From the IMG/VR virus record IMGVR_UViG_3300025120_000020: a stretch of DNA of 64,000 nucleotides; one strand, given 5' to 3'. The first letter of the stretch is position 1. Each line of letters starts with the position of its first letter. This DNA is from a virus. The position numbers and the translations under genes were made by a program. The notes under the pieces were generated by a model. That model had not been told where the DNA came from. It did no database searches and saw nothing but the letters and a program-made list of their open reading frames with translations. Below are positions 37,745 through 60,055 of the stretch, piece after piece.

Positions 37745-38128
37745 ATGCCTATTTATATTTTTAAACACCCAGAAACAGAAGAATACAAGGAAATCGTTCA
37801 AACTATGAACGAAGAACATGTATATACTGACGAGTCTGGGCTAAAATGGAAGAGAATTTTTACAATCCCCAATGCAACTATTGATACAAAAGATGACGCT
37901 TGGAGCCACAATGGATTTGTAGAGAAAACTGGCAAGATGAAAGGAACTGTAGGCGATGTTCTAGATTATTCCTCAGAATTGTCTGCGATAAGGGCAGAAG
38001 CTAATGGTGGAGAAGATCCAGTCAAAAGAAAGACTTTCGATGACTACGAAAAGAAAGTGGGCAAAAAGCACATTTCTGATAAAAATAAGACTATCGAAAC
38101 CTCTAAGATCAAAATAGATCTAGATTAA
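37745..38128 (+). CDS. FmdB-like protein (Cys-less)
   Basis: MPIYIF......E..E....M..........KRIF..P. Confidence 0.6.
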   Translation: MPIYIFKHPETEEYKEIVQTMNEEHVYTDESGLKWKRIFTIPNATIDTKDDAWSHNGFVEKTGKMKGTVGDVLDYSSELSAIRAEANGGEDPVKRKTFDDYEKKVGKKHISDKNKTIETSKIKIDLD

Positions 38129-39027
38129 ATAACTGAGTATAGTCCACTGAAGGGAATGCAACCAGTAAAAGTTGGTGAGCTAAATACCAAGTAAGCTTCA
38201 CTAGCTCCAGTCACAATTTGCCCAGTGATAAATGTATCCTTGCTTCCTATAGATCCCCCGTCAGTCCCCGTGAGTATATTTTTTAAATTAGGTGTGCCAC
38301 CCACTTTCGCATCAGCAAAATCAGTAACTGCGGCAGGAGTTTCGCTACTGTTAACAGTTCTTGAACCAATGTAAAGATCTGATACAGCATCTCCACTATC
38401 ATTTAACGTGACTGAACCGCCAAAGCTAGCAGCGCCGATAACATCACAAGTTCCAGCAACACTCAAATTTCCACTAAATATTCCAGAGTGACTTGAATCG
38501 ACTTTTAGATGGGAATTAAAATTAACGTCACCAGCTTCGAAGTTCACTCCACTATTGAAAGAAACTAATAGAGAGTGATTAGTGCTATTGGTGGTAGTTC
38601 CTTCATGGTCTGCTAATATAACAGCTCCAGTGGTCTTATCAGCGAAAGTTGCTAATTTTCCTGCTAGAATTGTATTTTGTTGGCCAGAAGCTCCAAAATT
38701 TACCTGAGTCCCATTTAAGAGGGTATTAAAGTTACCAGATACATTAGTGTTAGCAGAACCATTAACCACGACATTATTTGTCCCCGTAACCAAGTTATTT
38801 GTCCCCCCTAAAACAGAACAACTACCGTCAATAGAGTTAGTAGATGATGTAGTTATAATTGGATCATTGTCAATTGTAGCACTACCATTGAAGTCTATTG
38901 GCCCATTAATATCCCTTGCTAGGTTAATCTGAACCCCAGTCGAAAGGTCAGTAAATGAAAAATCACCACTAGGACTCGTAAAAGTAGGTAATTGTAATTG
39001 TTGTGGTTGAATTTTAGTAAATGCCAT
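38125..39027 (-). CDS. Tail fibre/spike-like beta-helical protein
   Basis: SVLGGTNN.VTG..NVVVNG..N..SG repeats; S/T/G/N-rich; GTGTA motif upstream. Confidence 0.6.
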   Translation of the reverse strand: MAFTKIQPQQLQLPTFTSPSGDFSFTDLSTGVQINLARDINGPIDFNGSATIDNDPIITTSSTNSIDGSCSVLGGTNNLVTGTNNVVVNGSANTNVSGNFNTLLNGTQVNFGASGQQNTILAGKLATFADKTTGAVILADHEGTTTNSTNHSLLVSFNSGVNFEAGDVNFNSHLKVDSSHSGIFSGNLSVAGTCDVIGAASFGGSVTLNDSGDAVSDLYIGSRTVNSSETPAAVTDFADAKVGGTPNLKNILTGTDGGSIGSKDTFITGQIVTGASEAYLVFSSPTFTGCIPFSGLYSVI

Positions 39028-39065
39028 GTTACAATAGATTATCTAAATAAGAATACACTTTTTCT

Positions 39066-39644
39066 ATGAAATTTACACTTTATAAGCCTAATGCTAAAAA
39101 TACTGGATCAGCATTCACCTTTGACTGCACTAAAGACAGAAACGGTAATCCAGTTCTTTTTGTCTCCATGATTCTTCAGCATAGCTGGAATAATGAACGT
39201 AAAACGGGTTCTTTTAAGGAGAACGCCAAGAATCCAGATAAATCTACTACAATTAAACTCACAGACATTGAAGCTGGAGAGTTCTTGTCCTCAATGAAAA
39301 CTAGGATTCCATTCTTAGGTTTTCACAAAACAGAAGAAAAAACAACAATCATTAAATTCACCCCTTGGGATAAAAATCGTATCATCAAAAACAAAGATGG
39401 TCAAGAAACCTTTAAATCGCCAGCTTGGGGTCTGACAGTTACAAAAAATTCTTCTCAATTCTTTAAACTTCCAATCGAAGCTGGAGAGGCTGAATGCCTA
39501 GCTGTTTTGCTTGAAGGCTATATAAAAGAGAGTTTAACTGCTAAATCAGAAGCTTATAAGCAGGATCAGCCCAAAAAAACTTACCAAAAATCCACACCTA
39601 AAGCGTCCGTAGTTGAGGACGACGATGACGATGTCCCATTCTAA
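39066..39644 (+). CDS. Putative single-stranded DNA-binding protein
   Basis: Aromatic/basic beta-rich body; acidic tail EDDDDDVPF like the bacterial SSB tip. Confidence 0.6.
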   Translation: MKFTLYKPNAKNTGSAFTFDCTKDRNGNPVLFVSMILQHSWNNERKTGSFKENAKNPDKSTTIKLTDIEAGEFLSSMKTRIPFLGFHKTEEKTTIIKFTPWDKNRIIKNKDGQETFKSPAWGLTVTKNSSQFFKLPIEAGEAECLAVLLEGYIKESLTAKSEAYKQDQPKKTYQKSTPKASVVEDDDDDVPF

Positions 39645-41337
39645 AATCAAAGTCTTAGTTCAGTCTAATTATTCCCGTATGGTAACGGGTTTCGGGAAGA
39701 ATATTAAAAATATTCTTCTCGCTCTTTATAATGATCCAGATATTGAAGTCGTAGAAGCTGCCAACGGAGTTCCTTATGGTAGGGATATAAGCACCCCTTG
39801 GGAGTCCTACGGCACTTATCCTTCTAATCCCAAGATCCTTAGTGCTATAGAAAAAGAACCATCTAAAAAAAGAGCCGCGCAATATGGATTTTATGTAATT
39901 GATGAGATCGTAGAAAAAGTAAAACCAGATGTATTTTTGGGGATCGAAGATGTCTGGGCTTTCAGGGAATATGAAAATAAACCTTGGTGGAATAAAACAA
40001 AAAAAATCATTTGGACAACTTTAGATAGCTTACCTATTTTAGATCAAGCTATTAAAATGGAACCAAAATGTGACAAAATGTTGGTTTGGGCTAGCTTCGC
40101 TGAAAAGGCAATGAAGGAGCTTGGTCATGAGACAGTGGAGACTGTTCACGGAGCCGTAGACTACAGTCACTTTAAACCTCTGGATAACAGAGAAGAGTTG
40201 CGAAAACTCCACGGTCTTCAAGACGATTTCGTAATTGGGTTTGTATTCAAAAACCAACTAAGGAAGTCTGTCCCCAATCTATTGGAAGGATTTAAAAAGT
40301 TTAAAGAGAAAAACCCAAGGGTCTCTGCAAAGCTCCTCCTGCATACGGACTGGGGAGAAAAAGATCATGGATGGGATATCCCAAGATACCTAAAAGAAAA
40401 AAACCTTGAAGACGGAAGCGTATTAGCAACTTATGTATGCCACAAGTGTGATGATTACTTTGTTCGGCCATATTCTGGAGAAGATAAAGACTGTCCTTCA
40501 TGCGGTTCTAAGAAATCTTTAAAAACGAAGAATAGCGGAAAGGGAGTAGGAGAGAAGGAGCTAAACGAGCTATATAACATGATGGATGTTTACTGTCACC
40601 CATTCACAAGTGGAGGTCAGGAGCTACCAATTCAAGAGGCTAAAGCTGCTGGACTAATCACTCTGGTTACAGACTACTCTTGTGGAACTGATTCTGCATA
40701 TGAGCATCAAGGTGGACTACCTCTATCTTGGAATGAATATAGGGAACCAAGCACTCAGTTTATTAAAGCTACTACATGTCCAGATAGTATTTGTGAGAGA
40801 ATACAGCAAGTTTACGAAATGGACGAAGACTCTAAATCTAAACTCATTGAAACTGGCAAAAAATATGTTAAAGAAAAATTCTCAGTTCGCAATACTGTAG
40901 ATAAATTAAAACAACATATAAAGTCAGTCGAAATAAGAACAAATGAAGAGGAGGAAAAGGAGGATAAGAAGCCTAGTATCTCAGTAGAGGATTTCTTAAA
41001 AGACACCCCACTTAAAGATAGAATTGCCGTAGTGCTTCCTAGATCGGCGGGTGATGTCTTAATGGCTAACTCTCTTATGGAGAACCTTCATAATCTCTAT
41101 CCAGACAAGAAGATATTCTTTGTCACCCAGCCAGAATTTTACGACCTTATTAACGATAATCCTTTTGTTCATAAAGTTATCCCTTATTCAAACTCATTTG
41201 AAGACTTGCATGTTCTTGAAGGCAGGGGGGATCATCAGGGTCTTTTCGATATAGCCTTTCTCCCTCACTGTATGACACAGAAGACATATAGCTATAACCA
41301 CAATGGGAAAGATAAAACTCAATTTAAATTAAGATGA
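39631..41337 (+). CDS. GT4 glycosyltransferase with zinc-ribbon insert, fused to a GT9 N-terminal domain
   Basis: TGFG, KNQLRKS, CHKC..CPSC, LYN.MDV.....SGG.ELP..EA.A.G; C-terminal PRSAGDVLM......L...YP...I.FVT......I..NPFV. Confidence 0.82.
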   Translation: MSHSKIKVLVQSNYSRMVTGFGKNIKNILLALYNDPDIEVVEAANGVPYGRDISTPWESYGTYPSNPKILSAIEKEPSKKRAAQYGFYVIDEIVEKVKPDVFLGIEDVWAFREYENKPWWNKTKKIIWTTLDSLPILDQAIKMEPKCDKMLVWASFAEKAMKELGHETVETVHGAVDYSHFKPLDNREELRKLHGLQDDFVIGFVFKNQLRKSVPNLLEGFKKFKEKNPRVSAKLLLHTDWGEKDHGWDIPRYLKEKNLEDGSVLATYVCHKCDDYFVRPYSGEDKDCPSCGSKKSLKTKNSGKGVGEKELNELYNMMDVYCHPFTSGGQELPIQEAKAAGLITLVTDYSCGTDSAYEHQGGLPLSWNEYREPSTQFIKATTCPDSICERIQQVYEMDEDSKSKLIETGKKYVKEKFSVRNTVDKLKQHIKSVEIRTNEEEEKEDKKPSISVEDFLKDTPLKDRIAVVLPRSAGDVLMANSLMENLHNLYPDKKIFFVTQPEFYDLINDNPFVHKVIPYSNSFEDLHVLEGRGDHQGLFDIAFLPHCMTQKTYSYNHNGKDKTQFKLR

Positions 41338-42443
41338 GCCACTTAGTAGAAGTTTATGCAAAAGATTTGGGAGTTAAAATTGGCGACCCACATTTCAAAC
41401 CTCATTTTTTTCCTGTTCTTGAAGATAACTATATTACCATCCACAATGACAATAAAGTTCAATCCAAAGAATACGATTATTGGGAAGAGGTTATTTGTTT
41501 AGTTAAGGAGCAAGTTCCAGATATTAAGTTTATTCAAATAGGCTCTGGACAAGAACCAATAATAAAAAATGCAACAAAGTTCGCTGCCACTTCCAGCATA
41601 AAGCAGTCTGCTTACATCATTAAGAATGCATTAATGCACGTTGGCATAGATAGTTTGCCAGTTCATATTGCATCATCGTTTGATAAACCTATTGTCTCGA
41701 TATACGCACATACTTATGCCTCTACTTGCAGACCAATCTGGGGTTCAAAAAATAATCATACGATAATTGAGTCCCACAGAGATGGTAAAAAACCATCTTA
41801 CTCTTTAAAAGAACAACCCAAGCAAATAAACTTGATCAAGCCAGAGGAAATAGCTAATGCCGTTCTGAAAAGGCTAGGGAAAAACAAAAGTTCTAGAAAA
41901 ACAATTTTTATTGGCGACAAATATAAGGAAAAATTTATCCATATTATACCAGATAAGAAATATGGGGTATCCTCCAAGCAAACAGTTCTTAGGTTTGATT
42001 TACATCATGATGAAGAAAATACTCTTCATTTATTCGCAAATAATAATATTTCTATTGTGACAAACAAGCCATTAGGAGATAAACTTTTAAGTCAAAAAAA
42101 TATAAATTGCATTAATTATTTTTGTGATCGATTCGACTCGGGGTTTGTCGAAAGAGCGAAAAATAAAGGTATAACTTTACGTTTATTTTGCACGGACGAG
42201 GGAAACCTTAGTGAAGAAAGGCTTAAGTTTTTTGACAACCAAATCCTTTTAATAGACGAATCTAAAAAAATAGAAGAAAATAAAAAACAAATTGAATTGC
42301 CCGAAAAAGATTTAAAAATAAAATCTTATACAATTTACTTTAAGAACGGGCAAGCACATCACTCTCTCTTTGAGGCAAATAACAAAGAGAGTTTAGACGA
42401 TATTTTTATTGACTTGGACAAACTTATGCTTTATACTGATTAA
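41334..42443 (+). CDS. GT9 (heptosyltransferase-like) C-terminal domain protein
   Basis: HLVEVY...LG, YITIH, K.Y..W.EV, IQIG, Q.A.II.NA..HVG.DS.P.HIA....KP.V.IY. Confidence 0.82.
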   Translation: MSHLVEVYAKDLGVKIGDPHFKPHFFPVLEDNYITIHNDNKVQSKEYDYWEEVICLVKEQVPDIKFIQIGSGQEPIIKNATKFAATSSIKQSAYIIKNALMHVGIDSLPVHIASSFDKPIVSIYAHTYASTCRPIWGSKNNHTIIESHRDGKKPSYSLKEQPKQINLIKPEEIANAVLKRLGKNKSSRKTIFIGDKYKEKFIHIIPDKKYGVSSKQTVLRFDLHHDEENTLHLFANNNISIVTNKPLGDKLLSQKNINCINYFCDRFDSGFVERAKNKGITLRLFCTDEGNLSEERLKFFDNQILLIDESKKIEENKKQIELPEKDLKIKSYTIYFKNGQAHHSLFEANNKESLDDIFIDLDKLMLYTD

Positions 42444-42444
42444 A

Positions 42445-43227
42445 ATGAGTGATAAAAAGATTTACGGACCTGATCTTTACAAGCGTAATGAGCATGGGCT
42501 TTTAGAAAATGCAGAATACGAATTTAATGAAGATGGCTCTGTAAATTGGAGAGCCATGATTAAGCCAGAGTTTCTTTACCCAAATAAAGATTGGTTTGAA
42601 GCTCGCAAAAAGGATGTTCCTACTTCACCAGAGGGCTTGGATGACAAACAGCTTTTGATCATGCTTGGTGGCATTAAGGAGTTGGCTCGACTCAGGGGAT
42701 TTCAGAGTGTTTCGTTCAAAACCGACCACCTTAGTGATACTTATGTTGTGGCTAATTGTGAAATTGTTTGGTCTCCTAATTATGAAAGTCATGATCAAGG
42801 TGTTGTTTACCAAGATGTCGCAAATGCGACACTACAAAATACAGGTTCTTTCGCAGCTAAGTTCTTAGAAACTATCGCTTGCAATAGAGCTTTTGTGAGA
42901 TGTGTTCGTAATTTTCTAAACATTCACATCGTGGGAGCTGATGAGATTGATAAATCAAAAGGAGCTGTAAATTCTCAATCAGTTGAATCTTCTGCTGATG
43001 AAACTATAGGAAGCATTCTTTCCCCTCACACAAGACTATTTCAAGACTGGCAAGACTATACTGGTGGGGGTAACAATTTCGAAGACTTCAAAAAAGGAGC
43101 CTTGCGCTCTCTATGGAAGCAAGAGATTTATCAAAATAAAGATGCTCAAAACTGGAATAACTTTGACGAAATACCAGTCAAAGAGGTTCGCAAAATTAGA
43201 GCTGCTATTAGAAAACTAAAGTCCTAA
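42445..43227 (+). CDS. Rad52/Sak-like single-strand annealing protein
   Basis: GGIKELA..RG, V.A.C.I, ETIA.NRA.VR.VR..L.I...G.DE; promoter TTGACT-N17-TATACT at 42409-42437. Confidence 0.6.
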   Translation: MSDKKIYGPDLYKRNEHGLLENAEYEFNEDGSVNWRAMIKPEFLYPNKDWFEARKKDVPTSPEGLDDKQLLIMLGGIKELARLRGFQSVSFKTDHLSDTYVVANCEIVWSPNYESHDQGVVYQDVANATLQNTGSFAAKFLETIACNRAFVRCVRNFLNIHIVGADEIDKSKGAVNSQSVESSADETIGSILSPHTRLFQDWQDYTGGGNNFEDFKKGALRSLWKQEIYQNKDAQNWNNFDEIPVKEVRKIRAAIRKLKS

Positions 43228-45645
43228 GTAGTTTTTTTGAATTGCTGTAAAATTATTATTCTTTATAGCGGTTAATGATGCTTTTTGATTTCTGTCAATA
43301 ATTAATTGTTCGCTTGGTCTAAGAAGCTTAACGCTAGATTCATTAATTGTTGTGGTTGCTCCAGAATCACCTAACTCAAGAGTAATCGCAGAAATTGTTG
43401 GTTTAAAATCACCCGGCAAAGAAATCCCAAGTATAGTTCTACTAGATTGAATTTGAGGTCTTGGGATAGATTGAAGCGCAGATAGCGAACTGTTTTCTAA
43501 TGCTATTATATCTGCGATTTTACCTTTCTTAATGTCTAATGTAATTGGCCTATAAGAATCACCACTAGATCCATTATCCTGAACACTATAATATCTAGTG
43601 TCGAACCTCTCAGCTAATTCGGATATCTTCTGCGCTGCGGCATCAAGACCCGCCTGTCTATCAGCGTCATTTTTTTCTTGCGCCCTAGTTTTATCAGTCT
43701 CTACTTCATCTGTTGGTCTTTTCGATCTAGTAAAATAAGCTCTCGCAGTTTGTGGGGCTTGTTTTTCTTTATTCTGAGCATTATAAAATTCTGCTGATTT
43801 TCTCGCAAGCTTTATTATCTGGCTTTTCAACGCTTTACTTACTCCTAAATATTCAGACACACCATTAGCTTCGAATCGATACTCGTTCGAATTGAATAAT
43901 TCAAAATCAATATCTGCCTTCTTCATCCCATAAGTTGCCTTATTTGCTCCGTTAATCACTCCAACAAAACCATAACTCCCTCCCCCTTTCGACCCAGATG
44001 CTTTCATCAATTCGTTAAGGTTCCCATCAAACCATCCAAGTGATTTCCAAACGGTGTCAGCACTAGCTAAAGCTTCTATGTCTGAAAATTGGTCGAAAGT
44101 ATCAAAAGGACCGCTTATGGTCATCTCAGATCCTGCCCAGTTTGTCCTCCTAGCTGAATACTGCCTATAGTAATTAGAAACATAAATTGTATTATGCAAT
44201 ACATCAAAAAGAGCCTTTATGTATCTAAAAGCATTCCCCTGCGATGGTCTTTCTATCTTTTGGCCAGTTGCTTTATCTTTTAACTGTATAAACTCTGCAT
44301 CATCAAGATCCATATCTCCCCCTTTTTGCAACTTCTGTTTATGCCTAGAAATGCTAGTTAGTAGTTCAACACCTCCTGATCTTGCATCCTCCATAGAACT
44401 AGCCCCATTCCAATCCTCTTTTTGCCACTCAATATCAATCCCCGTTTCCGATGAGAATTTTGTCGCAACAATCCCCATTATATCAAAATTTTCCTCATTT
44501 AAAGCTCCAGCAAGATACATAGTGTAATAAAGTTTTAATATACTTTCGTTAACAAGTAGCTTCTCTATTATCGCTTCAGGCGCGTCCTCAGTCCCCTCTG
44601 AGAAAGGAACTTTTCTAAATCTAGTAATCCTTTCTCCTTGGTCAAATTCAAAACTTTGTTCTTGTTTTTCTATACTTCCACTAAAAACGTTAACAAATAC
44701 GGGATAAATTGAATCTTCCGTAAAAGAAGCGCTAATATATTTTTTTTGCTCTGAAAGAGATTGTTTAAATGGATTTAAGGGAGATAAACTTAATGCTGCA
44801 TTAGAATTTATAAAATTAATAATCCCATCTGCAAATGGATTAACATACCAATAATAACCAAATTTAGTAGCAATATTAGAAATAATTGCATCTAAAGTGC
44901 CAGATTCCTCAAATAGTATGTTATCATCAGTATTTGGTAGCCCTCTCAGGAAAATTCCACACTTTTCCAATCCAGCTTTCGCCTCTGCGAGTGTGTATCC
45001 AAACCTCAATTCGTAATTAGCATAATCTGGGAATTTACGATAGAATTGACTTACATTCTCTAAATTATAACATAAATTCTCTTTTAATAATCCTGATTGA
45101 TATACCAAAGAAGTTTTAACGCCGTCTGCGACAATATTACGTTCTTTATTATACACTGAGGTGACAGAACTTTCTTCGTTAAAAATATTTCCTATTCTTA
45201 CAACGCCACCCTTCCTAGACGGTCCTTTTCGGGGAAACTGTTGTGATGCTGGAACAGGAGTATTTGAGCATTCGCTAAAATAAGGCATTACAATAGTTCC
45301 TGATTGATCTTTAGGGTGGCTTTGACTTCCCCTAACAATAAAACAATGAGACCTCAAATCAAGCGCAGTTACATGACTCAATTCTCTGAATATTCTTGTT
45401 GATCTTCCATCTTTTTTAACGGTCTTTTTAACGGTCTTGAATCTTTGCGTCATTTCCTGAAGCCTAGCATCAGAAAACGTAATCCGTCCAGACCTAGAAC
45501 CAATAACTGTTCCAAGATCATTGCCATCTCGCGCTAAGTCTTTAGCGTCTAAAACAGTCTCCATTGATAACGAGTGATCCCCTCCAGAACTTGAAAAATT
45601 AAAATTCAAGGACACCAGCGATTCTCTATCTGATAAAAAGGCCAT
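43216..45645 (-). CDS. Tail tip/hub-like protein
   Basis: 809 aa, last gene of the tail run; GTL..IISNIA..FGY.WY motif. Confidence 0.55.
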   Translation of the reverse strand: MAFLSDRESLVSLNFNFSSSGGDHSLSMETVLDAKDLARDGNDLGTVIGSRSGRITFSDARLQEMTQRFKTVKKTVKKDGRSTRIFRELSHVTALDLRSHCFIVRGSQSHPKDQSGTIVMPYFSECSNTPVPASQQFPRKGPSRKGGVVRIGNIFNEESSVTSVYNKERNIVADGVKTSLVYQSGLLKENLCYNLENVSQFYRKFPDYANYELRFGYTLAEAKAGLEKCGIFLRGLPNTDDNILFEESGTLDAIISNIATKFGYYWYVNPFADGIINFINSNAALSLSPLNPFKQSLSEQKKYISASFTEDSIYPVFVNVFSGSIEKQEQSFEFDQGERITRFRKVPFSEGTEDAPEAIIEKLLVNESILKLYYTMYLAGALNEENFDIMGIVATKFSSETGIDIEWQKEDWNGASSMEDARSGGVELLTSISRHKQKLQKGGDMDLDDAEFIQLKDKATGQKIERPSQGNAFRYIKALFDVLHNTIYVSNYYRQYSARRTNWAGSEMTISGPFDTFDQFSDIEALASADTVWKSLGWFDGNLNELMKASGSKGGGSYGFVGVINGANKATYGMKKADIDFELFNSNEYRFEANGVSEYLGVSKALKSQIIKLARKSAEFYNAQNKEKQAPQTARAYFTRSKRPTDEVETDKTRAQEKNDADRQAGLDAAAQKISELAERFDTRYYSVQDNGSSGDSYRPITLDIKKGKIADIIALENSSLSALQSIPRPQIQSSRTILGISLPGDFKPTISAITLELGDSGATTTINESSVKLLRPSEQLIIDRNQKASLTAIKNNNFTAIQKNYLGL

Positions 45646-46484
45646 TATGAGAAATAATTTAATGTTTGTTTATTTACTAAGTAGACAGAAGAGTCTACTC
45701 CCGACTCTATCATATACACTCCAGTATGAATTTGAAGCAAATCTTCGGTGGTTTGCTCCATTCCATTTACGTAAAAATCAACGTGATTTTCTACAAATTT
45801 TGGCCCAAATATATCAGGTTCATTAGAACGCACTTCAATTGTTCTATCTTGTTTGGGTATAGCGAATAAGTCCCCTGTAGTGCCGTGGACTGGAACTTCA
45901 ACACCAGTGAATTCCGCGACTGGATCTTCAGCATATTTTAATTTTTGTCCGTTAAAAAAAACATGGTGATTTTCGAATAAATCACTTTCGGTTCCAGCAT
46001 TAGAATAAGCAGTGTTTACCTTAGATCTAAGACCATCAATATCTAAAGCGTTAAGAGGCGAGTTAATTGAAATCCCAGCGGCAAAATCTCTTTTATCATA
46101 ATAAATAATATCTTTACTATTTAAGTTCAAAACTGGATCAAACATAATTTCCCCTTGAGAATTATCTATATCAAAAATATAATTACCTAAATCATCAGCT
46201 GCTTGTATGTAATAATTTTGATTAACATCTTGTGAGATTGTAACTCCAGTAGCCTCAAGCATAGTTTGAGAGTTAAGTGACACTAAAGATACTCCACTAC
46301 CAGTAATAATATCGATATCAAAAACAAAAGGGTAATCTTTCTTTTTCCCGTTTTCATCTAATCTAAAGTGTTTTTTATCAAATAAATTTGCACCAAAATA
46401 CGGGGATTGATTTTTATGTGATATGTTAAGTTGGCTACCTGATATAGTAGAATGACCAGTAGCTATTACATAGTTATATGTCAT
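45645..46484 (-). CDS. Virion structural protein
   Basis: In the tail operon; VFFNGQKL and FYVNG..Q repeats; S/T-G rich. Confidence 0.55.
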   Translation of the reverse strand: MTYNYVIATGHSTISGSQLNISHKNQSPYFGANLFDKKHFRLDENGKKKDYPFVFDIDIITGSGVSLVSLNSQTMLEATGVTISQDVNQNYYIQAADDLGNYIFDIDNSQGEIMFDPVLNLNSKDIIYYDKRDFAAGISINSPLNALDIDGLRSKVNTAYSNAGTESDLFENHHVFFNGQKLKYAEDPVAEFTGVEVPVHGTTGDLFAIPKQDRTIEVRSNEPDIFGPKFVENHVDFYVNGMEQTTEDLLQIHTGVYMIESGVDSSVYLVNKQTLNYFS

Positions 46485-47902
46485 GATTTACCTCCCATGT
46501 AATAAATATAATTCTTTTTAAATTTATCAGCATTTTCTGTTAAATTTACACCAGATGATGCTGGTTCCACAAACGTAACAGACTCCGTGAGGGCTGTTTG
46601 ATTTACACCACTAACCTCAGACAAAACTCCAGTAAGAGGAGTTTTACCGTATAGATCAATTGTGATTTTATCTTGAGTTATTCCAGTAAACTCTGCATAA
46701 GTTTGTATTGATTCCGATACATCATTTAATCCTAAAGTATCGTAAGCACCTTCTCCAGTGGGATAATAAATGTATCCAGAGTTTGAATGAAGTTGGCCCA
46801 ACTCTTCTTTGTAGAACGTCTTAACATCACCATTATTCAAAGTATAATACTTGTAGTAACGCTCTCCCTCGCTTCTACTTTCTGACGAAGTCAGTGATAT
46901 GCTACCAGTGAATTCTTCTCTTCCAGTTATAATCTCTAATGTCCCTGTAGAGTTATAATTGTATCCTGTAATTCCAGTTTTGAAAACAATGGTCTCAGAA
47001 TAACCTGTGACTCTTTCTACCGATGTTTCAATGGCAGGATCCTCAAAATAACTACCAATAAGCCCTTCACCCAATTCTTTTAAAAAGTCTGGGTCCATAA
47101 ATCCAGAGATGATGGCCAAACCATGTAAACTTCCACTAAATGTCGCAGTCTTATTATCTGTTGACCTAAAGTAAGTGTCGCTTCCTCCAAAATATAGAGA
47201 TAGAGTCTCAGGACCAATCAGTCGGATCACCTCATTGTCAATAAAATTTTCAGATATAGGGATCTCTACCTCTTTCGTTAAACTATTGAAATAATCAAAA
47301 TAGCTAACAATAATCTGGCTTCTACCCACAGAAACGCCGATAATATTTCTTTTAGATAATTCTACTGAACCAATTACTTTGATTGAATCTCCATCATCCC
47401 TATAAGTTTGACAAAATAAGTGTCCTCTGTCAGTAACTCCAATATTATACCCCTGTGAGTGCCTTATTTCATTACTAGATATAACAGTAACGCCAGTTTC
47501 AAAACACCCAAGTATAACGCCATCATCAATATCCCCATCTTGAAACTCAAAGTCAATTACAAACGAAATATCGGCAGCGTTTAGTCCATTTAGAGGGACT
47601 TGAAAATTACCATAGGTTAAGTCTAATTTATCTCCGACACTGGATGAAGAATCAAAAATATCACTAGCTTTATTTATAACGGCTGTGTTATCAACACCTG
47701 TTGCCCCAAGTAAAAAACCAGTGTGTAAAGAAGGTTGATTAGAATAAATAGAGTTGGGGTATGTCCCAGTAACATTTCCATCTGCCCCAGTAAAAAATCC
47801 TATGCTCAAGGCAGATGCCCCTTCAAAATCATAAAGAGCAGATAACCGTTGGTTTGAACTTTGGCCGTTCAATAAAATAGCATTTAACGCTTTCTCACTC
47901 AT
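46481..47902 (-). CDS. Virion structural protein (LamG-like N-part, TG-repeat C-part)
   Basis: In the tail operon; ALYDF, lectin-like strands, multiple xTG repeats. Confidence 0.55.
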   Translation of the reverse strand: MSEKALNAILLNGQSSNQRLSALYDFEGASALSIGFFTGADGNVTGTYPNSIYSNQPSLHTGFLLGATGVDNTAVINKASDIFDSSSSVGDKLDLTYGNFQVPLNGLNAADISFVIDFEFQDGDIDDGVILGCFETGVTVISSNEIRHSQGYNIGVTDRGHLFCQTYRDDGDSIKVIGSVELSKRNIIGVSVGRSQIIVSYFDYFNSLTKEVEIPISENFIDNEVIRLIGPETLSLYFGGSDTYFRSTDNKTATFSGSLHGLAIISGFMDPDFLKELGEGLIGSYFEDPAIETSVERVTGYSETIVFKTGITGYNYNSTGTLEIITGREEFTGSISLTSSESRSEGERYYKYYTLNNGDVKTFYKEELGQLHSNSGYIYYPTGEGAYDTLGLNDVSESIQTYAEFTGITQDKITIDLYGKTPLTGVLSEVSGVNQTALTESVTFVEPASSGVNLTENADKFKKNYIYYMGGKS

Positions 47903-49515
47903 TAATAATACTTGGCTAAGTTATAAGATATTGAATTTTGACCCGTGGCATAAGATTCTTGTATAAGTAAATTTCCGCTACACAACCCAGAAACAACTTC
48001 TTTTAGTTTATCTAATTTACTACCATCCTCACTACAATTAGCCGATACAGAATAGTTTCCTAAGCTTCGCGAAATTACCTGAGAAGCCCCAAATCCACTA
48101 ATGGTTTCTTGGACATTATTAACAGCAAGAGGCTGTTTGTTTGATATATTTAAAGATAAATTTTTCAAATTTCCTGATGAGAAATCCACTTGGTTAGAAT
48201 AATTATAATTATAAGATATGGTATTTTCAACAGGATTTTTTGATATAGAGAAAGCTAGTGGCTCTTCATTCACATAAGATGAGTTAATTTCATATCCAGT
48301 AGCAACACCAGAAAATTTCTGTAAAGCAGATATCGCTATTGCCTGTTGATCAACTTGCCCAAAAGCAGTTTCCACAGCTTGAAATCTAGCATTGCTTTCA
48401 AACTCTCCTGTAGAATCAATAAACAAAGATCCCAAATATTTCAAGTTCCCCTGAACCGCGATAGAAGAGACTGAAGCATCTTTTGATAAACTTATTGAAG
48501 ACACATAAGAGTGTAAAACATTATTATTAATAAGATCAACTTTGTCTGGGTCAGCGAAAGCGAAAGAAAAATTAAGAAGGTTGGCTCCAGTATTTAAATT
48601 GTAATTAAATGCAGACGGGCCTTCTTGAACAAAACTATAAACACCTGATTCATAATCAGAGTAGGAATTAACCAATGCATTAGTTGCTACCTCTGTGGCT
48701 TGCTCTGGAGTAAAGTTACCAGTTGATAATAAACCAACTTGACTCCCTGTATTTGCGTCCATACTGCCCTGAAGACTACCATCAATACTGATAGAGAGTT
48801 CAGAGTTGTTGCTAAATGAAATTGATGTAGAGAGGTTTAAAACACCACTATCGGAGTAAGACTTATCAGAATTATCTCTATCTCCAGCCGAGTAAGAATA
48901 AACTTCTGTAATCCCATAAATATTTTCTTTTCTATCTACGTTTTCTGTCCTAGAATTTAAAAAGGCGTTGCTCCCGCTGTTGAAGAGAGCAATATTTTCA
49001 AATCCATTAATAACCTTCCCGCTAACAAACTCACGAGCATTATCAAAAGGATCTTTAGAATTAACTTTTAATCCTTTGGCTGAAACAGTATGGGTAGCAG
49101 TAATTATTTTATTATCTCCCTCCCCATAAGACCAAGAGTTTTGTGGGTCTGTAACTCCAAAATATTCTGAAAATGTTTCTCCAGAATAATACAAGGCACT
49201 TAAGCTATAAGGAAGGACTGTAGTCGAGTCGCTTTCATTAAAATCAATACTTTCTATAAAGGCGCAAGGACAGGTTTTAGCCTCATTTTCGATGGTTATT
49301 GTTAGGTCTTGATATTCATTAAGGAAACCACTGACCATTTGCATTTTTTGCAAATCTAGCCCACTCAAGTCACTACCAGTCAGAAAGCCTATTATGTTAA
49401 CCCGAATGGTGCTATGATCTAATAATCCACCAAGCTTAACTGATTCATCTTCTTCAGAAAAAAGGGGGATTGGCTCAGGGAAAGAGTAGCTTCCGTATGT
49501 AATAGAAGTCGCCAT
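47902..49515 (-). CDS. Tail tip/distal tail-like protein
   Basis: Downstream of the tape measure; beta-rich. Confidence 0.55.
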   Translation of the reverse strand: MATSITYGSYSFPEPIPLFSEEDESVKLGGLLDHSTIRVNIIGFLTGSDLSGLDLQKMQMVSGFLNEYQDLTITIENEAKTCPCAFIESIDFNESDSTTVLPYSLSALYYSGETFSEYFGVTDPQNSWSYGEGDNKIITATHTVSAKGLKVNSKDPFDNAREFVSGKVINGFENIALFNSGSNAFLNSRTENVDRKENIYGITEVYSYSAGDRDNSDKSYSDSGVLNLSTSISFSNNSELSISIDGSLQGSMDANTGSQVGLLSTGNFTPEQATEVATNALVNSYSDYESGVYSFVQEGPSAFNYNLNTGANLLNFSFAFADPDKVDLINNNVLHSYVSSISLSKDASVSSIAVQGNLKYLGSLFIDSTGEFESNARFQAVETAFGQVDQQAIAISALQKFSGVATGYEINSSYVNEEPLAFSISKNPVENTISYNYNYSNQVDFSSGNLKNLSLNISNKQPLAVNNVQETISGFGASQVISRSLGNYSVSANCSEDGSKLDKLKEVVSGLCSGNLLIQESYATGQNSISYNLAKYY

Positions 49516-49516: not shown

Positions 49517-51061
49517 TTAAGCTATTATATACTCTATTACACGAGTTGTTGTTCCATCAACTAAATTAGATGTGACTACATCGCTTATTCCGTGAAAATC
49601 TGTTTCTTCTAAAGCTGCATTCATTTCCGTCGTTTTGCCATTTAAAAAATTTTTACCATGATGAACTCCATATGCAGGGTCTGCTGTAGTAGTAGCAGTA
49701 ACAGTCGCTGAACCTAACGAGTTCAAACTAGAAGTAACAACTTTTTGCTTCAGATCTAATAAATCAAGAATTACACCATTCCTTTTTACTTTTTCTTGTT
49801 TTTGAACGGAAATATTAAATTTTAAAATTCCTTTGGGCAAAGGGCCAGAGTCATAAGAGTCATCTGTAGTGTATTTTATATTCTCTGTTACCAATCCTTT
49901 TGGTTTGTCAATCGTAGCAGATCTTGATTTCTCGTATATTTCTGTAGCTTCTGAAAACAACCCTACAACTTTAGTCTCATTTTTGTCTTTGTTGGAAGTC
50001 CACAAAGCTATAACACTATCATATCTTGTTTGTGAATTTTTATCTTTAGCTTTGTATGTTACACTTAAATCGTATTCGAAAAACACTCCTGCTTTATTTT
50101 TAGTGCATTTATAAGAAATGCTATTTTCTTGAGATAACTCTGGGTTAGTAGAGAAACTAATAGATAGAGAAGCTTTTTTGGAGTCTTTTGTTACGCCCTT
50201 TTGTATAGCGAATGGCTTTCCAAACTGGCTGTCTTCGTCAGATATTATACTATCTATAGTCGATCCTATAGCATCCCCCAAAACTTTAGACGAGTGATGC
50301 TTTAATGACGTTAACTCAACACTAATAACTTTGGTGAGATATCCTTTTTCATCAACTGAGGTAGAGGTGGTTATCTTTTTAGAAACATTTTCTGAATCAA
50401 CAACAAAAGAAGAGTCAAAATCTTCTTGCAGATCAACAGATAAGTTTACTAAATCTATTGTTTGGTTGAGAGTTCCATTGTAATTTTTATTAAATCTAGC
50501 ATTTTCAGATATACCATCTTCATAGTGTCCTAAACTGGGTCTATTGGCATAGTAGTAATTAGTGAGGAAGGCTTTTGCGTTTGTTAAAAACTGATTTCCC
50601 GCATCTTGAGAATATTTTATAGATATACTTCTATTATAAGAGTAGTCTGCCCCCGATCTTGTAAAAGTATAGCTTTCAGAAAAATCATCTAATAAATGAG
50701 GACTTGGAATATATTTAGCGAAGGTTTTTGAGCTATAATCATCTAACCGCCTTCTTTCTTCAATTGTTATGTCTACAGTATCTTCCCCGTTTAGCGAGCC
50801 TTCTGCAAAAGATACCCTAGTAACTAACCCGTTTAATATTTCATCTCCAGCTATACGAGCTGTTATGTTTTGCCTCTTGTAAGCTGATCTAATGGCGGCT
50901 CTTCCAGAAAGTAGAACGCCGTCATTATTGTCGAACTGTATATCTTCTACCTTTAGAGTATAATTCAAAGTAACCAAATACCCAAAAACTTCCTGACTCC
51001 CAAAATAAGAATAGGAAATTTGAGAGTTAGAGTTGATTACATTATTTACTAATAGGCTCAT
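49517..51061 (-). CDS. Distal tail-like protein
   Basis: Immediately after the tape measure; beta-rich. Confidence 0.55.
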   Translation of the reverse strand: MSLLVNNVINSNSQISYSYFGSQEVFGYLVTLNYTLKVEDIQFDNNDGVLLSGRAAIRSAYKRQNITARIAGDEILNGLVTRVSFAEGSLNGEDTVDITIEERRRLDDYSSKTFAKYIPSPHLLDDFSESYTFTRSGADYSYNRSISIKYSQDAGNQFLTNAKAFLTNYYYANRPSLGHYEDGISENARFNKNYNGTLNQTIDLVNLSVDLQEDFDSSFVVDSENVSKKITTSTSVDEKGYLTKVISVELTSLKHHSSKVLGDAIGSTIDSIISDEDSQFGKPFAIQKGVTKDSKKASLSISFSTNPELSQENSISYKCTKNKAGVFFEYDLSVTYKAKDKNSQTRYDSVIALWTSNKDKNETKVVGLFSEATEIYEKSRSATIDKPKGLVTENIKYTTDDSYDSGPLPKGILKFNISVQKQEKVKRNGVILDLLDLKQKVVTSSLNSLGSATVTATTTADPAYGVHHGKNFLNGKTTEMNAALEETDFHGISDVVTSNLVDGTTTRVIEYIIA

Positions 51062-55790: not shown

Positions 55791-55804
55791 TGTAATTAAA
55801 TACA

Positions 55805-57485: not shown

Positions 57486-57491
57486 CAAATA

Positions 57492-57863
57492 CTAAAAAAT
57501 ATATTCGATCTCAATAGTGGAATCTCCATGTTTTTCAAACTCAATGTGGTCAAAGCCAGTTGAACCAGAAACATTATTTGCGATTAGAGCATCATCAATA
57601 AAATAAGAATAAGTGTCATTTCTCTTCATGTGAACTGAAATATCAAATGAATTATTAGGAGAATAACCCCCAACAAACCTACCTGATTGATCAAAAATAT
57701 ACCCCACGCTTCCAGAAAAAACAAACCCACTATTCAGTAACCCATCTCCTCCAGCATTGCCAGTCCCAGCAGCTACAGAGAATCCAGAAAAAGTATCATC
57801 AATAGAAATAGTTAAATTTGTAATTGATTCTTCATAACCATCGACTTGTTGGTAAACCTTCAT
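57492..57863 (-). CDS. Small virion-associated protein
   Basis: 123 aa, S/T-G rich, GTGTA motif upstream. Confidence 0.55.
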   Translation of the reverse strand: MKVYQQVDGYEESITNLTISIDDTFSGFSVAAGTGNAGGDGLLNSGFVFSGSVGYIFDQSGRFVGGYSPNNSFDISVHMKRNDTYSYFIDDALIANNVSGSTGFDHIEFEKHGDSTIEIEYIF

Positions 57864-57879
57864 TCTCTATATATTACAC

Positions 57880-57913
57880 AAAAAAACAGCCCCACCTTTC
57901 GGTGAGGCTGTTT
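57880..57913 (-). terminator. Rho-independent terminator after the tail tube gene
   Basis: Minus strand CAGCCTCACC-GAAA-GGTGGGGCTG followed by T7. Confidence 0.9.
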
Positions 57914-57929
57914 GTATTTTTAAAATAGA

Positions 57930-59141
57930 TTAACTAATTGGTTGAGCAGTCAACTTGTTATTTGTTCCACTTACAACAGTAAAGGCTGGAACATCAGCCT
58001 GTGGGAAGAAGAACAGCCCTTGGTCAGTGGTAGAAGCACCACCGATTTGAGCAGAGAAAGTGAGATCAACAGTTTCGTTATCATCAAGTCCTTGCGAGAA
58101 TGACTGACTATCAAGAACAGCTCCACTAAGAACATACTCTACTGCGGCTGCGCCATCGTTTGTAATGTTCAATGTGATGTTAGTCTTATTATTCTCAGCA
58201 GTTCCAGTCAAAGCATACTCAAGTGCGCCTGAAGCAAAGTCCCTAGTAAGAGTATTGACGCTCATAGTAACGTCAATTGGGAATTCAAGGAGTTTGGCAT
58301 AAGCCAACTCATTTCCAAGAGCCTCAATAACTTCACGAGCTAATGGAAGCTCAACAGAAGCACTTTGAATAGGTAAAGCACTAAAGGTAGGTCCACCAAT
58401 TTTCGAAACTCCATCAGTCCCATCATTGAAAGTAATAGTTACATCTTGAGGACGAAGAACCAATGGAAGATTGTCAGCATCAGAACTTGGAGCAGGAAGT
58501 TTAACAATCCCAGTGTGAGTTCTTTCTCCTTCCAAGTCTAGCGATGGGTTAAGCAGACCAGAATTAATTCCAGTATAGAAAACCACATTAGAAGCTTGCA
58601 TTTCAATATCAGCCCGTGGGATCTCTCCAACACTGAAGTTTGCACTGTAGCTGGAAAGGAAACAGTTTCCGAATCCAACAACATCGTGGTTATCTTCATT
58701 TGTTATCATTGTTGCCTCCGTTTCATTAAAAGCATCTTCTCCCTCTGCAACTGTTAGTAGGAAAATATTGCGCTCTTTAAGAATAGGATCTTCTGTCAAT
58801 TGTCCAGAACACATTTGACCCTTAACTGATGCCGTTGATTTCTGGAAACCAAGAGCCAATTCATTTTCTCCATCCCCCAAGAAGTATCCGAAACTTAAAG
58901 TTGGATTCACTTCAGTAAGGTTAACGGTTCCGATTCGTGCTAATTGACCAAATTCTCTGACATCTTGACGCGCTCCAGCGAGATCCATTTCGAATGAAAA
59001 GGTATCAACACGATGCAGGTGATGACCTGTTACCATGCTATTGCCAGTTAAAGGAGTTCCTGCTTCGGGATATGCGCCCCATCCAGTAGGAGTTACATAG
59101 ACCGCCTTGTTTTGTGAAATTACTCTTGTTCTTGTAGCCAT
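57930..59141 (-). CDS. Major tail (tube) protein
   Basis: L.RV.......RQDVREFGQL, CFLSSYSANFSVG, two related halves; own promoter motif and terminator. Confidence 0.75.
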   Translation of the reverse strand: MATRTRVISQNKAVYVTPTGWGAYPEAGTPLTGNSMVTGHHLHRVDTFSFEMDLAGARQDVREFGQLARIGTVNLTEVNPTLSFGYFLGDGENELALGFQKSTASVKGQMCSGQLTEDPILKERNIFLLTVAEGEDAFNETEATMITNEDNHDVVGFGNCFLSSYSANFSVGEIPRADIEMQASNVVFYTGINSGLLNPSLDLEGERTHTGIVKLPAPSSDADNLPLVLRPQDVTITFNDGTDGVSKIGGPTFSALPIQSASVELPLAREVIEALGNELAYAKLLEFPIDVTMSVNTLTRDFASGALEYALTGTAENNKTNITLNITNDGAAAVEYVLSGAVLDSQSFSQGLDDNETVDLTFSAQIGGASTTDQGLFFFPQADVPAFTVVSGTNNKLTAQPIS

Positions 59142-59176
59142 ATTTATATAAAAAGGTTTACCTTAAATACACTGAT

Positions 59177-60055
59177 TTAAGACCTTGGGAAACGATAGGT
59201 TGATAAATCAAAGTCTAAGAATGCTATAGAGAAGTCTTTATTCAGTTTTTCTCGCAAAGCCTCAGAAACAACTTTTGAAGCTGTAACGCTATCAATATAA
59301 GAACATAGAGGGCTAGTCCCTTGATTTCCTACAATGCCAGTATAAGTATAAGGAAAATCTTTTACAGAGTAAGAATAAGCATATGGGAACTCCTCATAAG
59401 GAATGTGAGTTACTTTTTCTCTTACGGTATCTCTAAGCCTAGAAATAACAGAATCTAAAATATAAGAATCTTTAGTTAAAATCATGACACGAACCCTACT
59501 TTGAGTGTTTTCCTCCCCACCAAATGCGAACTCTTCATTCTCAGAAGAAGCTAGAGAAACAAAACAAGCTGGAAGGAAATAAGCCCCTTTGTCTATAATT
59601 CCTGTTTCATTATAAAAGTAAGGCGAATCTTGCCCATTCTCTAAAAAATCAGAATAGACCAAAAACTCTACATCATCATCGTGAGAGATGTAAGTATTTA
59701 CTTCTTTTACAGAATAAGTCCCAGATATATTTAATCCAGTTCCAGAAGCTTCAGGAAATAAAAGTCTTCCATTTTCGTAATCAGTATGAACCCCTCCATT
59801 TGCACTAGAATCTCCAGTGACAAGACCCCCGCTCACCATAAACCCAGAGTTTACAACATCGATATCATAATCAGCGACAAGTTGACGATACTCTCCCTGA
59901 TAACCAACCATATCAGCAGGAATATCATCAAAATCTACATAGCGAAAATTATTGTCTAATCCAGTTATATAAGCTTTAGTGTCAGTCTTTAACAAGCGGT
60001 TTTCTAACCACAAGTAAAAACTGGACAATAAATTCTGATCAAATTGAGCTTTCAT
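59177..60055 (-). CDS. Tail terminator/neck-like protein
   Basis: Position before the tail tube; DYENGR..F, LPACFV, FAFGG. Confidence 0.55.
   Translation of the reverse strand: MKAQFDQNLLSSFYLWLENRLLKTDTKAYITGLDNNFRYVDFDDIPADMVGYQGEYRQLVADYDIDVVNSGFMVSGGLVTGDSSANGGVHTDYENGRLLFPEASGTGLNISGTYSVKEVNTYISHDDDVEFLVYSDFLENGQDSPYFYNETGIIDKGAYFLPACFVSLASSENEEFAFGGEENTQSRVRVMILTKDSYILDSVISRLRDTVREKVTHIPYEEFPYAYSYSVKDFPYTYTGIVGNQGTSPLCSYIDSVTASKVVSEALREKLNKDFSIAFLDFDLSTYRFPRS

What the first reader, a model, noticed from the sequence alone, without database searches (positions are those of the whole stretch)
38125..60055. Selective Ser/Thr-Gly dipeptide enrichment in a subset of structural proteins (putative glycosylation sequon)
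Hand counts of [S/T]G: about 15 in 300 aa (38125), 9/279 (45645), 19/473 (46481, e.g. RVTGY..FKTGITGY..STG..ITG..FTG), 19/537 (47902, roughly half of all its Gly), 7/123 (57492), 11/403 (tail tube) and 9/292 (59177). The equally S/T-rich neighbour 49517 has only 3/514, and the major capsid 2/367. Many sites are flanked by hydrophobic residues (F/I/V/L-[S/T]-G). The contrast between adjacent, similar-sized tail genes argues against a simple composition effect. Ser-Gly is the known acceptor of eukaryotic GT14 xylosyltransferases, and this phage encodes a GT14-like protein. The sequon role is inference.
Basis: partly seen in the sequence, partly recalled or inferred. Interest (0 to 1): 0.8.

Follow-up and report, generated by a model that had tools for sequence, protein, structure and literature searches.

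The report
Ser/Thr-Gly signature on phage tail proteins

Summary
The counts are exact. In the seven flagged proteins [S/T]-G occurs 89 times against 42 expected from composition. Thr-Gly is the most over-represented of all 400 dipeptides, and the reverse G-[S/T] is not enriched. Within this one genome the signal is modest after a background correction. It is replicated in dozens of diverged relatives: the same protein families are enriched 2.2-2.6-fold everywhere, while the neighbouring Dit-like protein is depleted (0.57).

The excess comes from position-conserved sites. It is not a DNA or codon effect. T4 and Mu tail proteins do not show it. The fold does not require it, because some hub homologues keep 0-2 sites.

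The proposed GT14/xylosyltransferase link fails. GT14 is in 1 of 17 related records and absent from two complete genomes that keep the signature, and the flanks are not acidic.

A GT4/split-GT9 pair is conserved throughout, but it sits beside SSB-like and recombinase-like genes, so its target could be DNA or host glycan.

Best reading (about 0.4): a selectively kept recognition motif, most likely O-glycosylation acceptor sites. A lineage-specific structural motif is nearly as likely.

The scan has noted similar [S/T]-G excesses in other uncultured phages.

The parts
38125..39027 (-). 300-aa beta-helix/beta-roll-like tail protein with 15 [ST]G sites (O/E 1.72). Its family has O/E 2.26 over 37 thinned members.
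   Evidence: (weak PF21300 beta-roll match)
45645..46484 (-). 279-aa baseplate protein with 9 [ST]G sites (O/E 3.2). Its family has O/E 2.48. It is fused to the upstream gene product in L043 and in far relatives (~715-755 aa).
46481..47902 (-). 473-aa baseplate or receptor-binding protein. The N-terminal ConA/LamG-like lectin jelly roll (1-290) has 7 sites against 5.5 expected. The C-terminal beta-ribbon region (291-473) has 12 sites against 4.7, with TG every 3-10 residues.
   Evidence: (Z about 15 to CBM/lectin domains)
47902..49515 (-). 537-aa hub-like protein made of about five tandem beta-beta-alpha-beta-beta (tail-tube/Hcp-like) domains. It has 19 [ST]G sites (O/E 2.3). T46-G47 and T265-G266 are invariant in 44 homologues. 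Homologues elsewhere range from 0 to 28 sites.
49517..51061 (-). 514-aa Dit-position protein, used as the contrast: 3 sites against 6.1 expected. Its family is depleted (O/E 0.57, and all 19 thinned members are below 1).
57492..57863 (-). 123-aa tail protein with 7 sites (O/E 2.5). Its family has O/E 2.61.
57930..59141 (-). 403-aa major tail protein (tube or sheath; no family match) with 11 sites (O/E 1.8).
59177..60055 (-). 292-aa head-tail region protein with 9 sites (O/E 2.7). Only a few relatives were captured.
39613..41337 (+). 574-aa GT4-like glycosyltransferase. It has an invariant CxxC-x14-CxxC insert and a C-terminal GT9 N-lobe. It is the candidate transferase and is conserved at 44-96% identity in more than 540 IMG/VR stretches.
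41334..42443 (+). 369-aa protein with a GT9 (heptosyltransferase) C-lobe, i.e. the donor-binding half, plus an unknown C-terminal domain. It is ATGA-coupled to the previous gene.
39066..39644 (+). 192-aa SSB-like protein (acidic D-V-P-F tail; Whirly lead). It is always first in the four-gene block.
42409..43227 (+). 272-aa conserved protein, always last in the four-gene block. There is only a weak lead to single-strand annealing proteins.
4013..4822 (-). It is not conserved among relatives.
6421..8319 (-). Nucleotide-heptose-like operon: HAD phosphatase, cytidylyltransferase-like protein, PfkB kinase and cupin. It is a possible sugar-donor supply and is accessory among relatives.

Best explanation
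[S/T]-G is a selectively maintained recognition dipeptide on particular tail-tip, baseplate and fibre proteins of a very large group of uncultured marine phages. Most likely these are acceptor sites for O-glycosylation of the virion by phage-encoded glycosyltransferases. The best enzyme candidate is the universally conserved two-chain GT4/split-GT9 enzyme (39613-42443), possibly using nucleotide-heptose, and not the GT14. Shown: the excess, its directionality, its restriction to Ser/Thr, its conservation as a unit, its lineage-wide occurrence in apparently unrelated proteins, its dispensability for the fold, and its depletion in neighbouring proteins. Inferred: that a transferase reads the motif, which transferase it is, and which sugar is used.
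For: 1. The excess is directional and hydroxyl-specific. TG has O/E 2.63 and SG 1.71, while G[ST] is 1.04, NG 0.86, DG 1.0 and PG 0. Codon use at the sites is ordinary, so this is not a DNA motif. 2. The same families are enriched in every relative: 38125 2.26, 45645 2.48, 46481 2.25 and 57492 2.61 after thinning to <60% identity. 3. The S/T of [ST]G is kept as S/T in 58-71% of diverged homologues, against 30-53% for other S/T. The partner G is also more conserved than other G. 4. The sites lie in mixed structural contexts, namely helix C-termini, just before helices, strand ends and inside long strands. No single structural role fits all of them. 5. The fold does not need the sites. Hub homologues range from 28 sites down to 0-2, below random expectation: L064 1 against 6.0, L057 2 against 8.0, P0209 1 against 8.2. 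The Dit-like family is depleted in all 19 thinned members. This looks like selection in both directions. 6. Fibre-like proteins with no HMM-detectable homology in distant relatives carry the same bias: L139 34 of 50 Gly, L057 54 of 86 Gly, L120 84 against 40. Some of them start with PT/PS-rich linkers. 7. T4 and Mu tail proteins, including tube-fold hubs and fibres, show nothing comparable. 8. The phage carries a large glycan toolkit, and the GT4/GT9 pair is present in every relative whose contig reaches that far.
Against: There is no chemistry. The enrichment comes almost wholly from position-conserved sites: masking them leaves O/E 0.7-1.9, which a structural motif also predicts. Many sites sit within strands with hydrophobic flanks, and the flank pattern gives no sign of outward-facing side chains, so some may be buried. 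An inner hub protein is an odd glycosylation target, while the major capsid protein has only 2 sites. In 46481 the excess lies in the C-terminal beta region only, which suggests a structural repeat. The GT4/GT9 pair is embedded between an SSB-like and a possible annealing protein and follows the replication genes in distant relatives. It may therefore act on DNA or on host glycan. Some relatives with the pair have neighbouring fibres without the bias. Known protein heptosyltransferase substrates are not [ST]G-rich: the Ag43 passenger has O/E 0.84. I found no relative that lacks the transferases, so no presence/absence test was possible.
Confidence: 0.4

Rival explanations
1. [S/T]-G is a lineage-specific structural motif. 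The hydroxyl side chain caps or staples the backbone next to a glycine, which takes an unusual conformation. This would occur at helix C-caps, pre-helix N-caps, hairpin turns and kinks in long beta ribbons of fibre-like regions. The motif would be inherited at fixed positions and have nothing to do with sugars.
For: The excess disappears when family-conserved sites are masked. In the hub, sites recur at equivalent places in the tandem domains: Phi-S-G at the end of helices 50-63, 156-168, 390-404 and 498-511, and T-G just before helices 50, 270 and 376. In 46481 the excess is confined to the C-terminal beta region. S versus T identity is often fixed per site. The flanks are hydrophobic, as in strands.
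Against: The other classical turn and cap formers, N-G, D-G and P-G, are not enriched. The same folds in T4 and Mu lack the excess. Hub homologues lose almost all sites, falling below random expectation, while keeping the fold. The motif occurs in several different folds and in families with no detectable homology.
Confidence: 0.35
2. The motif is read by another trans-acting factor, such as a tail-assembly chaperone, a kinase or another modifying enzyme. Alternatively, it replaces chemically labile Asn-Gly/Asp-Gly turns in long-lived extracellular proteins.
For: There are signs of selection in both directions: enrichment in some virion proteins and depletion in others. NG and DG are not enriched although the proteins are rich in beta structure.
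Against: No candidate reader other than the glycosyltransferases was identified. T4 and Mu virions face the same chemical ageing without this bias.
Confidence: 0.12
3. This is the first reader's specific version: the GT14-like enzyme at 4013-4822 xylosylates or glycosylates Ser-Gly, as eukaryotic xylosyltransferases do.
For: The gene is a real Branch/GT14 family member. GT14 does include xylosyltransferases that use Ser-Gly (established knowledge).
Against: GT14 is present in 1 of 17 relatives and absent from both complete genomes that keep the signature. There is no acidic context. Thr-Gly is more enriched than Ser-Gly.
Confidence: 0.03
4. The pattern is a chance or composition artefact produced by picking the highest counts among many proteins.
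For: Within the window alone, background-corrected single-protein p values are only 0.01-0.03.
Against: The same families are enriched in dozens of relatives down to 25% hub identity, with counts such as 50 against 20 and 54 against 17.
Confidence: 0.02

Closest known systems
Virion glycosylation of mycobacteriophages (Che8, Corndog, Myrna) by phage-encoded glycosyltransferases (Freeman et al. 2023, Cell Host Microbe). I cite this from my own knowledge; the phrase is echoed in papers listed.
   Same: The phage encodes its own glycosyltransferases, and structural proteins are the proposed acceptors.
   Different: In the mycobacteriophages glycosylation is shown by chemistry and lies on capsid and tail-tube C-terminal regions, with no dipeptide sequon described. 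Here nothing is shown chemically. The capsid protein is poor in the motif, and the candidate sites are dispersed [S/T]-G dipeptides on baseplate and fibre proteins of marine phages.
Bacterial autotransporter heptosyltransferases (TibC/Aah, BAHT) acting on TibA, AIDA-I and Ag43 (PMC4358343)
   Same: Both involve a GT9-type heptosyltransferase fold, a four-cysteine metal finger in the enzyme, many Ser acceptor sites on a beta-rich secreted or structural protein, and a substrate gene near the enzyme gene. One mapped TibA site is N-S-G-G.
   Different: BAHTs are single-chain and dodecameric with an N-terminal beta-barrel, they modify Ser and not Thr, and they recognise a structural strand-loop-strand unit rather than a sequon. 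The phage enzyme is split, with its Cys4 insert in the GT4 part. Thr-Gly is the more enriched dipeptide. A known BAHT substrate, Ag43, has no [ST]G excess. No BAHT-specific family matched.
Eukaryotic GT14 xylosyltransferases and the Ser-Gly attachment site of proteoglycans
   Same: A Ser followed by Gly serves as an acceptor, and a GT14-family gene is present in this window.
   Different: The acidic flanks required there are absent here. Thr dominates. The GT14 gene is not conserved with the signature.
ST-turns, ST-motifs and Schellman/alpha-L C-caps with Gly (general protein-structure knowledge)
   Same: In these motifs Ser or Thr side chains hydrogen-bond to the backbone beside a Gly at helix ends and tight turns. 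Several hub sites fit this.
   Different: These motifs normally share their positions with Asn/Asp, and they do not make half of a protein's glycines follow S/T. They are not enriched in comparable T4 and Mu proteins.

Membership tests
GT14 xylosyltransferase / Ser-Gly sequon system | A GT14 enzyme co-occurs with the acceptor signature | tested here: not met
   PF02485 is found in 1 of 17 related records and in 0 of 2 complete genomes. Those genomes keep the enriched tail proteins.
GT14 xylosyltransferase / Ser-Gly sequon system | Acidic residues flank the Ser-Gly | tested here: not met
   D/E make up 10.3% of residues within +-4 of the sites, against 12.3% background. Only 0-2 sites per protein have acidic residues on both sides.
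BAHT (TibC/Aah) protein heptosyltransferase system | GT9-like catalytic fold | tested here: met
   For 41334-42443, PF01075 gives E 1.2e-8 and the family profile matches 1psw (E 5e-4) and TIGR02201 (E 4e-7). The C-terminus of 39613-41337 matches the GT9 N-lobe weakly (TIGR02195 E 0.004, 3tov E 0.29). The fold is split over two genes.
BAHT (TibC/Aah) protein heptosyltransferase system | [quoted passage not shown] | tested here: inconclusive
   No BAHT-specific NCBIfam model appeared at E<=0.1, and TibC did not appear in the PDB sequence or profile searches. A CxxC-x14-CxxC insert exists, but in the GT4 part.
BAHT (TibC/Aah) protein heptosyltransferase system | Substrates are Ser-modified beta-helix repeats; acceptor choice is structural, not a linear sequon | tested here: not met
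   Thr-Gly is more enriched than Ser-Gly. The Ag43 passenger has [ST]G O/E 0.84. The papers state Ser only and a structural motif.
Phage virion O-glycosylation (mycobacteriophage type) | Glycan chemically detected on virion proteins | not testable with these tools
   The phage is uncultured and no proteomic data were available.
Phage virion O-glycosylation (mycobacteriophage type) | Phage-encoded glycosyltransferases co-occur with the modified structural proteins | tested here: inconclusive
   The GT4/GT9 pair is present in all relatives whose contigs reach it. No relative lacking it was found for contrast. L058, with no GT9 half found, has no enrichment, whereas L059, with none found in a 41%-complete fragment, has one enriched protein.
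Structural ST-turn / helix-cap motif | Sites lie at the ends of secondary-structure elements, and Asx can substitute | tested here: inconclusive
   In the hub 13 of 19 sites lie within 2 residues of an element boundary, against 50% of all residues. In 46481 only 5 of 19 do. N and D are minor substitutes, and NG and DG are not enriched. No coordinates were available to measure hydrogen bonds or burial.

The most novel reading that the evidence does not exclude
[S/T]-G is a linear O-glycosylation code. It would be read by a conserved two-chain GT4/split-GT9 enzyme across a very large group of abundant marine phages. Tail-tip and fibre proteins would be written with dozens of sites, while neighbouring virion proteins are purged of them. 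That would give a genetically programmed sugar coat on the host-recognition apparatus.
Probability: 0.25. Interest if true: 0.85.

Novelty: new variant of a known kind. Interest (0 to 1): 0.6.

Why it matters
If the dipeptide marks sugar attachment, this would be the first sequon-like code for phage virion glycosylation. It would also be the first case outside actinobacteriophages, and in a phage group abundant in the ocean (Tara and JGI samples, more than 540 IMG/VR contigs with the transferase). Glycosylated proteins and sites could then be predicted from sequence alone. That would bear on host recognition, particle stickiness and stability in seawater. If it is structural instead, it defines an unusual and easily recognised building rule for baseplate and fibre proteins whose folds are otherwise unannotated. 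Either way, the finding corrects the enzyme assignment (not GT14). It also shows that the GT pair's genomic company, an SSB-like and a recombinase-like gene, leaves its substrate open.

Tried and rejected
- DNA-level motif: codons at the sites follow normal usage and no dominant hexamer stands out beyond that. Rejected.
- N-x-S/T sequon: not enriched in any structural protein.
- Paralogy of the enriched proteins: hhalign between domains found only hub D3-D4 related. HMMs of the window's enriched families do not detect the enriched fibres of far relatives.
- Site turnover as a sign of selection for density: masking conserved sites removes most of the excess, so this gives no support.
- Amphipathic flank pattern to infer exposure: uninformative, 25 against 27 sites.
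- Family and structure matches: PHROGs and Pfam gave nothing for the structural proteins, and INPHARED holds no relative. PDB sequence or profile searches for 39613, 41334, 42409, 39066 and 46481 gave nothing beyond weak GT9 hits.
- Search for relatives without the GT pair: alignments of distant hubs were too diverse to scan with. The metagenome loci found are short, and their records are not held for whole-record search.
- Model coordinates are not exposed, so solvent accessibility could not be computed.


Full report
**What the window is**

The window is part of an uncultured marine phage. Two related records flagged 100% complete are about 147 kb long. The structural genes have no PHROG or Pfam family, and nothing similar is in the INPHARED phage collection. 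On the minus strand the order runs as follows:
- capsid, 62151-63254;
- several small head-tail genes, then 59177-60055;
- a 403-aa major tail protein, 57930-59141;
- a 123-aa protein, 57492-57863, followed by two mid-sized genes;
- a 1573-aa tape measure, 51084-55805;
- a 514-aa Dit-position protein, 49517-51061;
- a 537-aa hub-like protein, 47902-49515;
- proteins of 473 aa (46481-47902), 279 aa (45645-46484) and 809 aa (43216-45645).

**The observation**

Expectation here comes from each protein's own Ser, Thr and Gly content.
- The seven flagged proteins have O/E 1.7-3.2. Pooled, they have 89 sites against 42.4 expected.
- Thr-Gly (47 against 17.8, z 6.9) is the most over-represented of all 400 dipeptides in these proteins, and Ser-Gly is second.
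- The reverse dipeptide is at expectation (O/E 1.04).
- Before glycine only Ser and Thr are enriched. Asn-Gly is 0.86, Asp-Gly 1.0, and Pro-Gly is absent (0 against 6.2).
- Between 31% and 47% of all glycines in these proteins follow Ser or Thr.
- Codon use at the sites is ordinary, so this is not a nucleotide motif.
- N-x-S/T is not enriched.

Within this one genome the statistics are only moderate. The phage's non-structural proteins already have O/E 1.27. Against that background single proteins reach p 0.01-0.03. The pooled seven reach p 7e-6 but were chosen post hoc. Heterogeneity among the 18 structural proteins is p 0.011 by chi-square and about 0.001 by shuffling.

**Replication in relatives**

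The hub has 98 close homologues and 610 in a wider search, mostly from marine metagenomes. I fetched about 150 related loci.
- In every relative the same genes are enriched and the same neighbours are not.
- After thinning to below 60% identity, family-wide O/E is 2.26 (38125 family, 37 members), 2.48 (45645), 2.25 (46481), 2.61 (57492) and 1.9 (hub).
- The Dit-position family is at 0.57, with all 19 members below 1.
- In very distant relatives (hub about 25% identical) the roughly 730-aa protein after the hub has 31-50 sites against 13-20 expected. The next protein, of about 900 aa, is depleted (5-9 against 13-15). The one after that, of about 460 aa, is enriched again (30-33 against 11-12).
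- In L057 the post-hub protein has 54 sites against 16.9 expected, which is 54 of its 86 glycines.

T4 (29 proteins) and Mu (16 proteins) served as controls and include tube-fold hubs, sheaths, tubes and fibres. They give overall O/E of 1.13 and 1.33, with none at p<0.01. The excess is therefore real and specific to this lineage.

**Nature of the sites**

- The excess comes from position-conserved sites. Masking columns where at least half of the family has [S/T]-G lowers O/E to 0.7-1.9.
- In homologues below 60% identity the Ser/Thr of a site stays Ser/Thr in 58-71% of cases, against 30-53% for other Ser/Thr. The partner Gly is more conserved than other Gly. The dipeptide behaves as a unit under purifying selection.
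- The AlphaFold model of the hub (pLDDT 76) shows about five tandem beta-beta-alpha-beta-beta domains, with weak Foldseek matches to tail tube, Hcp, Dit and hub proteins. Its sites lie at strand ends, just before helices and at helix C-termini, at equivalent places in several of the repeats.
- The model of 46481 has an N-terminal ConA/LamG-like lectin jelly roll (VIA-align Z about 15, including phage tailspike domains) that is not enriched (7 against 5.5). Its C-terminal region of long beta ribbons is enriched (12 against 4.7) and has TG inside the strands every 3-10 residues.
- The motif therefore occurs in several different structural contexts.

**Dispensability and purging**

Hub homologues in the wider family range from 28 sites to 0-2. 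A group of full-length homologues keeps only the first T-G. In L064 (a complete genome), L063 and L057 the hub has 1 against 6.0, 3 against 5.1 and 2 against 8.0. In the same genomes the 46481, 45645, 57492 and 38125 homologues stay enriched. The fold does not need the sites. Some lineages fall below random expectation. Together with the depleted Dit-like family, this looks like selection in both directions.

**Glycosyltransferases**

The window encodes the following:
- a GT14/Branch enzyme (4013-4822);
- a cupin, PfkB kinase, nucleotidyltransferase and HAD phosphatase operon that fits nucleotide-heptose synthesis (6421-8319), and an epimerase (11645-12445);
- Gmd, a second epimerase, two GT2 enzymes, a methyltransferase and a DUF2334 protein (26595-32552);
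- a GT4-like gene (36662-37744);
- a GT4-like protein with an invariant Cys4 insert whose last ~100 residues weakly match the N-lobe of GT9 heptosyltransferases (39613-41337), ATGA-coupled to a protein that starts with the GT9 C-lobe (41334-42443).

It is absent from both complete genomes, which keep the signature. Acidic flanks typical of xylosyltransferase acceptors are also absent. That link is rejected. The heptose kinase is likewise accessory: it is in 7 of 19 records and absent from the two complete genomes.

The GT4/split-GT9 pair is conserved wherever the contig reaches it, and it occurs in more than 540 IMG/VR stretches. However, it is always flanked by a 192-aa protein with an SSB-type acidic D-V-P-F tail (with a Whirly lead) and by a 272-aa protein with a weak lead to annealing proteins. 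In distant relatives the block follows the DnaE and ClpB-like replication genes and merely faces the end of the structural operon. Its adjacency to tail genes is therefore a module boundary, and its target could be DNA or host glycan.

In those distant relatives the large fibre-like ORFs facing the block are often strongly [S/T]-G-rich. Examples are L109 (16 against 4 and 62 against 32), L120 (84 against 40), L126 (51 against 23), L137 (47 against 20) and L139 (34 against 12). Some begin with PT/PS-rich linkers, and most are not HMM-detectable homologues of the window's enriched families. In other relatives the neighbouring fibres are not enriched.

**Comparison with known systems**

Protein heptosyltransferases of the TibC/Aah family share a GT9-type fold and a four-cysteine finger. 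They modify many serines on beta-helix passengers, and one mapped TibA site is N-S-G-G. However, they modify Ser only and recognise a structural unit rather than a sequon (PMC4358343, PMC5000012). The Ag43 passenger has no [S/T]-G excess, and no BAHT-specific model matched the phage proteins. Virion glycosylation by phage enzymes is known from mycobacteriophages, but there it has no dipeptide code.

**Verdict**

The GT14 explanation is rejected. The two main readings remain close.

The recognition-motif reading, most likely O-glycosylation acceptor sites, rests on five points:
- the Ser/Thr specificity;
- the spread over different folds and families with no detectable homology;
- the dispensability for the fold;
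- the apparent purging from neighbouring proteins;
- the absence of the bias from T4 and Mu.

The structural reading rests on three points:
- the positional conservation;
- the recurrence at equivalent positions of repeated domains;
- the concentration in a beta-ribbon region.

I put the glycosylation reading at about 0.4 and the structural reading at about 0.35. The scan's notebook holds similar, unverified [S/T]-G notes on other uncultured phages. That agrees with the breadth I measured, but it is not independent evidence.

Noticed in passing
window 39613-42443 (+): A GT9 heptosyltransferase fold appears split over two ATGA-coupled genes. The N-lobe is fused to the end of a GT4-like protein that has an invariant CxxC-x14-CxxC insert. 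The C-lobe starts the next protein, which carries about 180 further residues of unknown fold.
   Followed up: partly
window 39066-39644 (+) and 42409-43227 (+): The genes flanking the GT pair look DNA-related. One is a 192-aa protein ending in an SSB-type acidic D-V-P-F tail (with a Whirly lead). The other is a 272-aa protein with weak leads to Sak/Rad52 annealing proteins. The four genes stay syntenic down to 44% identity, and in distant relatives they sit after the replication genes.
   Followed up: partly
window 45645-47902 (-); L043 11658-13925; L148, L150: The 473-aa and 279-aa proteins of the window correspond to one fused protein of about 715-755 aa in L043 and in distant relatives.
   Followed up: partly
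L139 14919-16784 (-); L126 16695-19685 (-): Fibre-like proteins of distant relatives begin with 60-100 residues of PTPS/PPTP repeats, which are mucin-like linkers. The body that follows has up to 68% of its glycines preceded by Ser or Thr.
   Followed up: no
window 6421-8319 (-) and 11645-12445 (-): A cupin, PfkB kinase, cytidylyltransferase-like and HAD operon plus an epimerase fit a nucleotide-heptose pathway without canonical GmhA/GmhB. The kinase is present in 7 of 19 related records and absent from the two complete ones.
   Followed up: partly
window 36082-36669 (+): A sigma-70/ECF-like factor (TIGR02937, E 2e-5) heads the plus-strand island that also carries a GT4-like gene. The trio 36082/36662/37745 is conserved in distant relatives (L118, L126, L136, L139, L140).
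   Followed up: no
seven flagged proteins of the window: Pro-Gly is completely absent (0 against 6.2 expected), and Arg-Gly and Lys-Gly are rare (O/E 0.2-0.4).
   Followed up: no
G006:C1:31726-32841 (record of L003): The GT9 C-lobe gene of this close relative contains one in-frame TGA within the match.
   Followed up: no
window 49517-51061 (-) and 41334-42443 (+) families: The Dit-position family (O/E 0.57) and the GT9 C-lobe family (O/E 0.59) are depleted in [S/T]-G across thinned relatives.
   Followed up: partly
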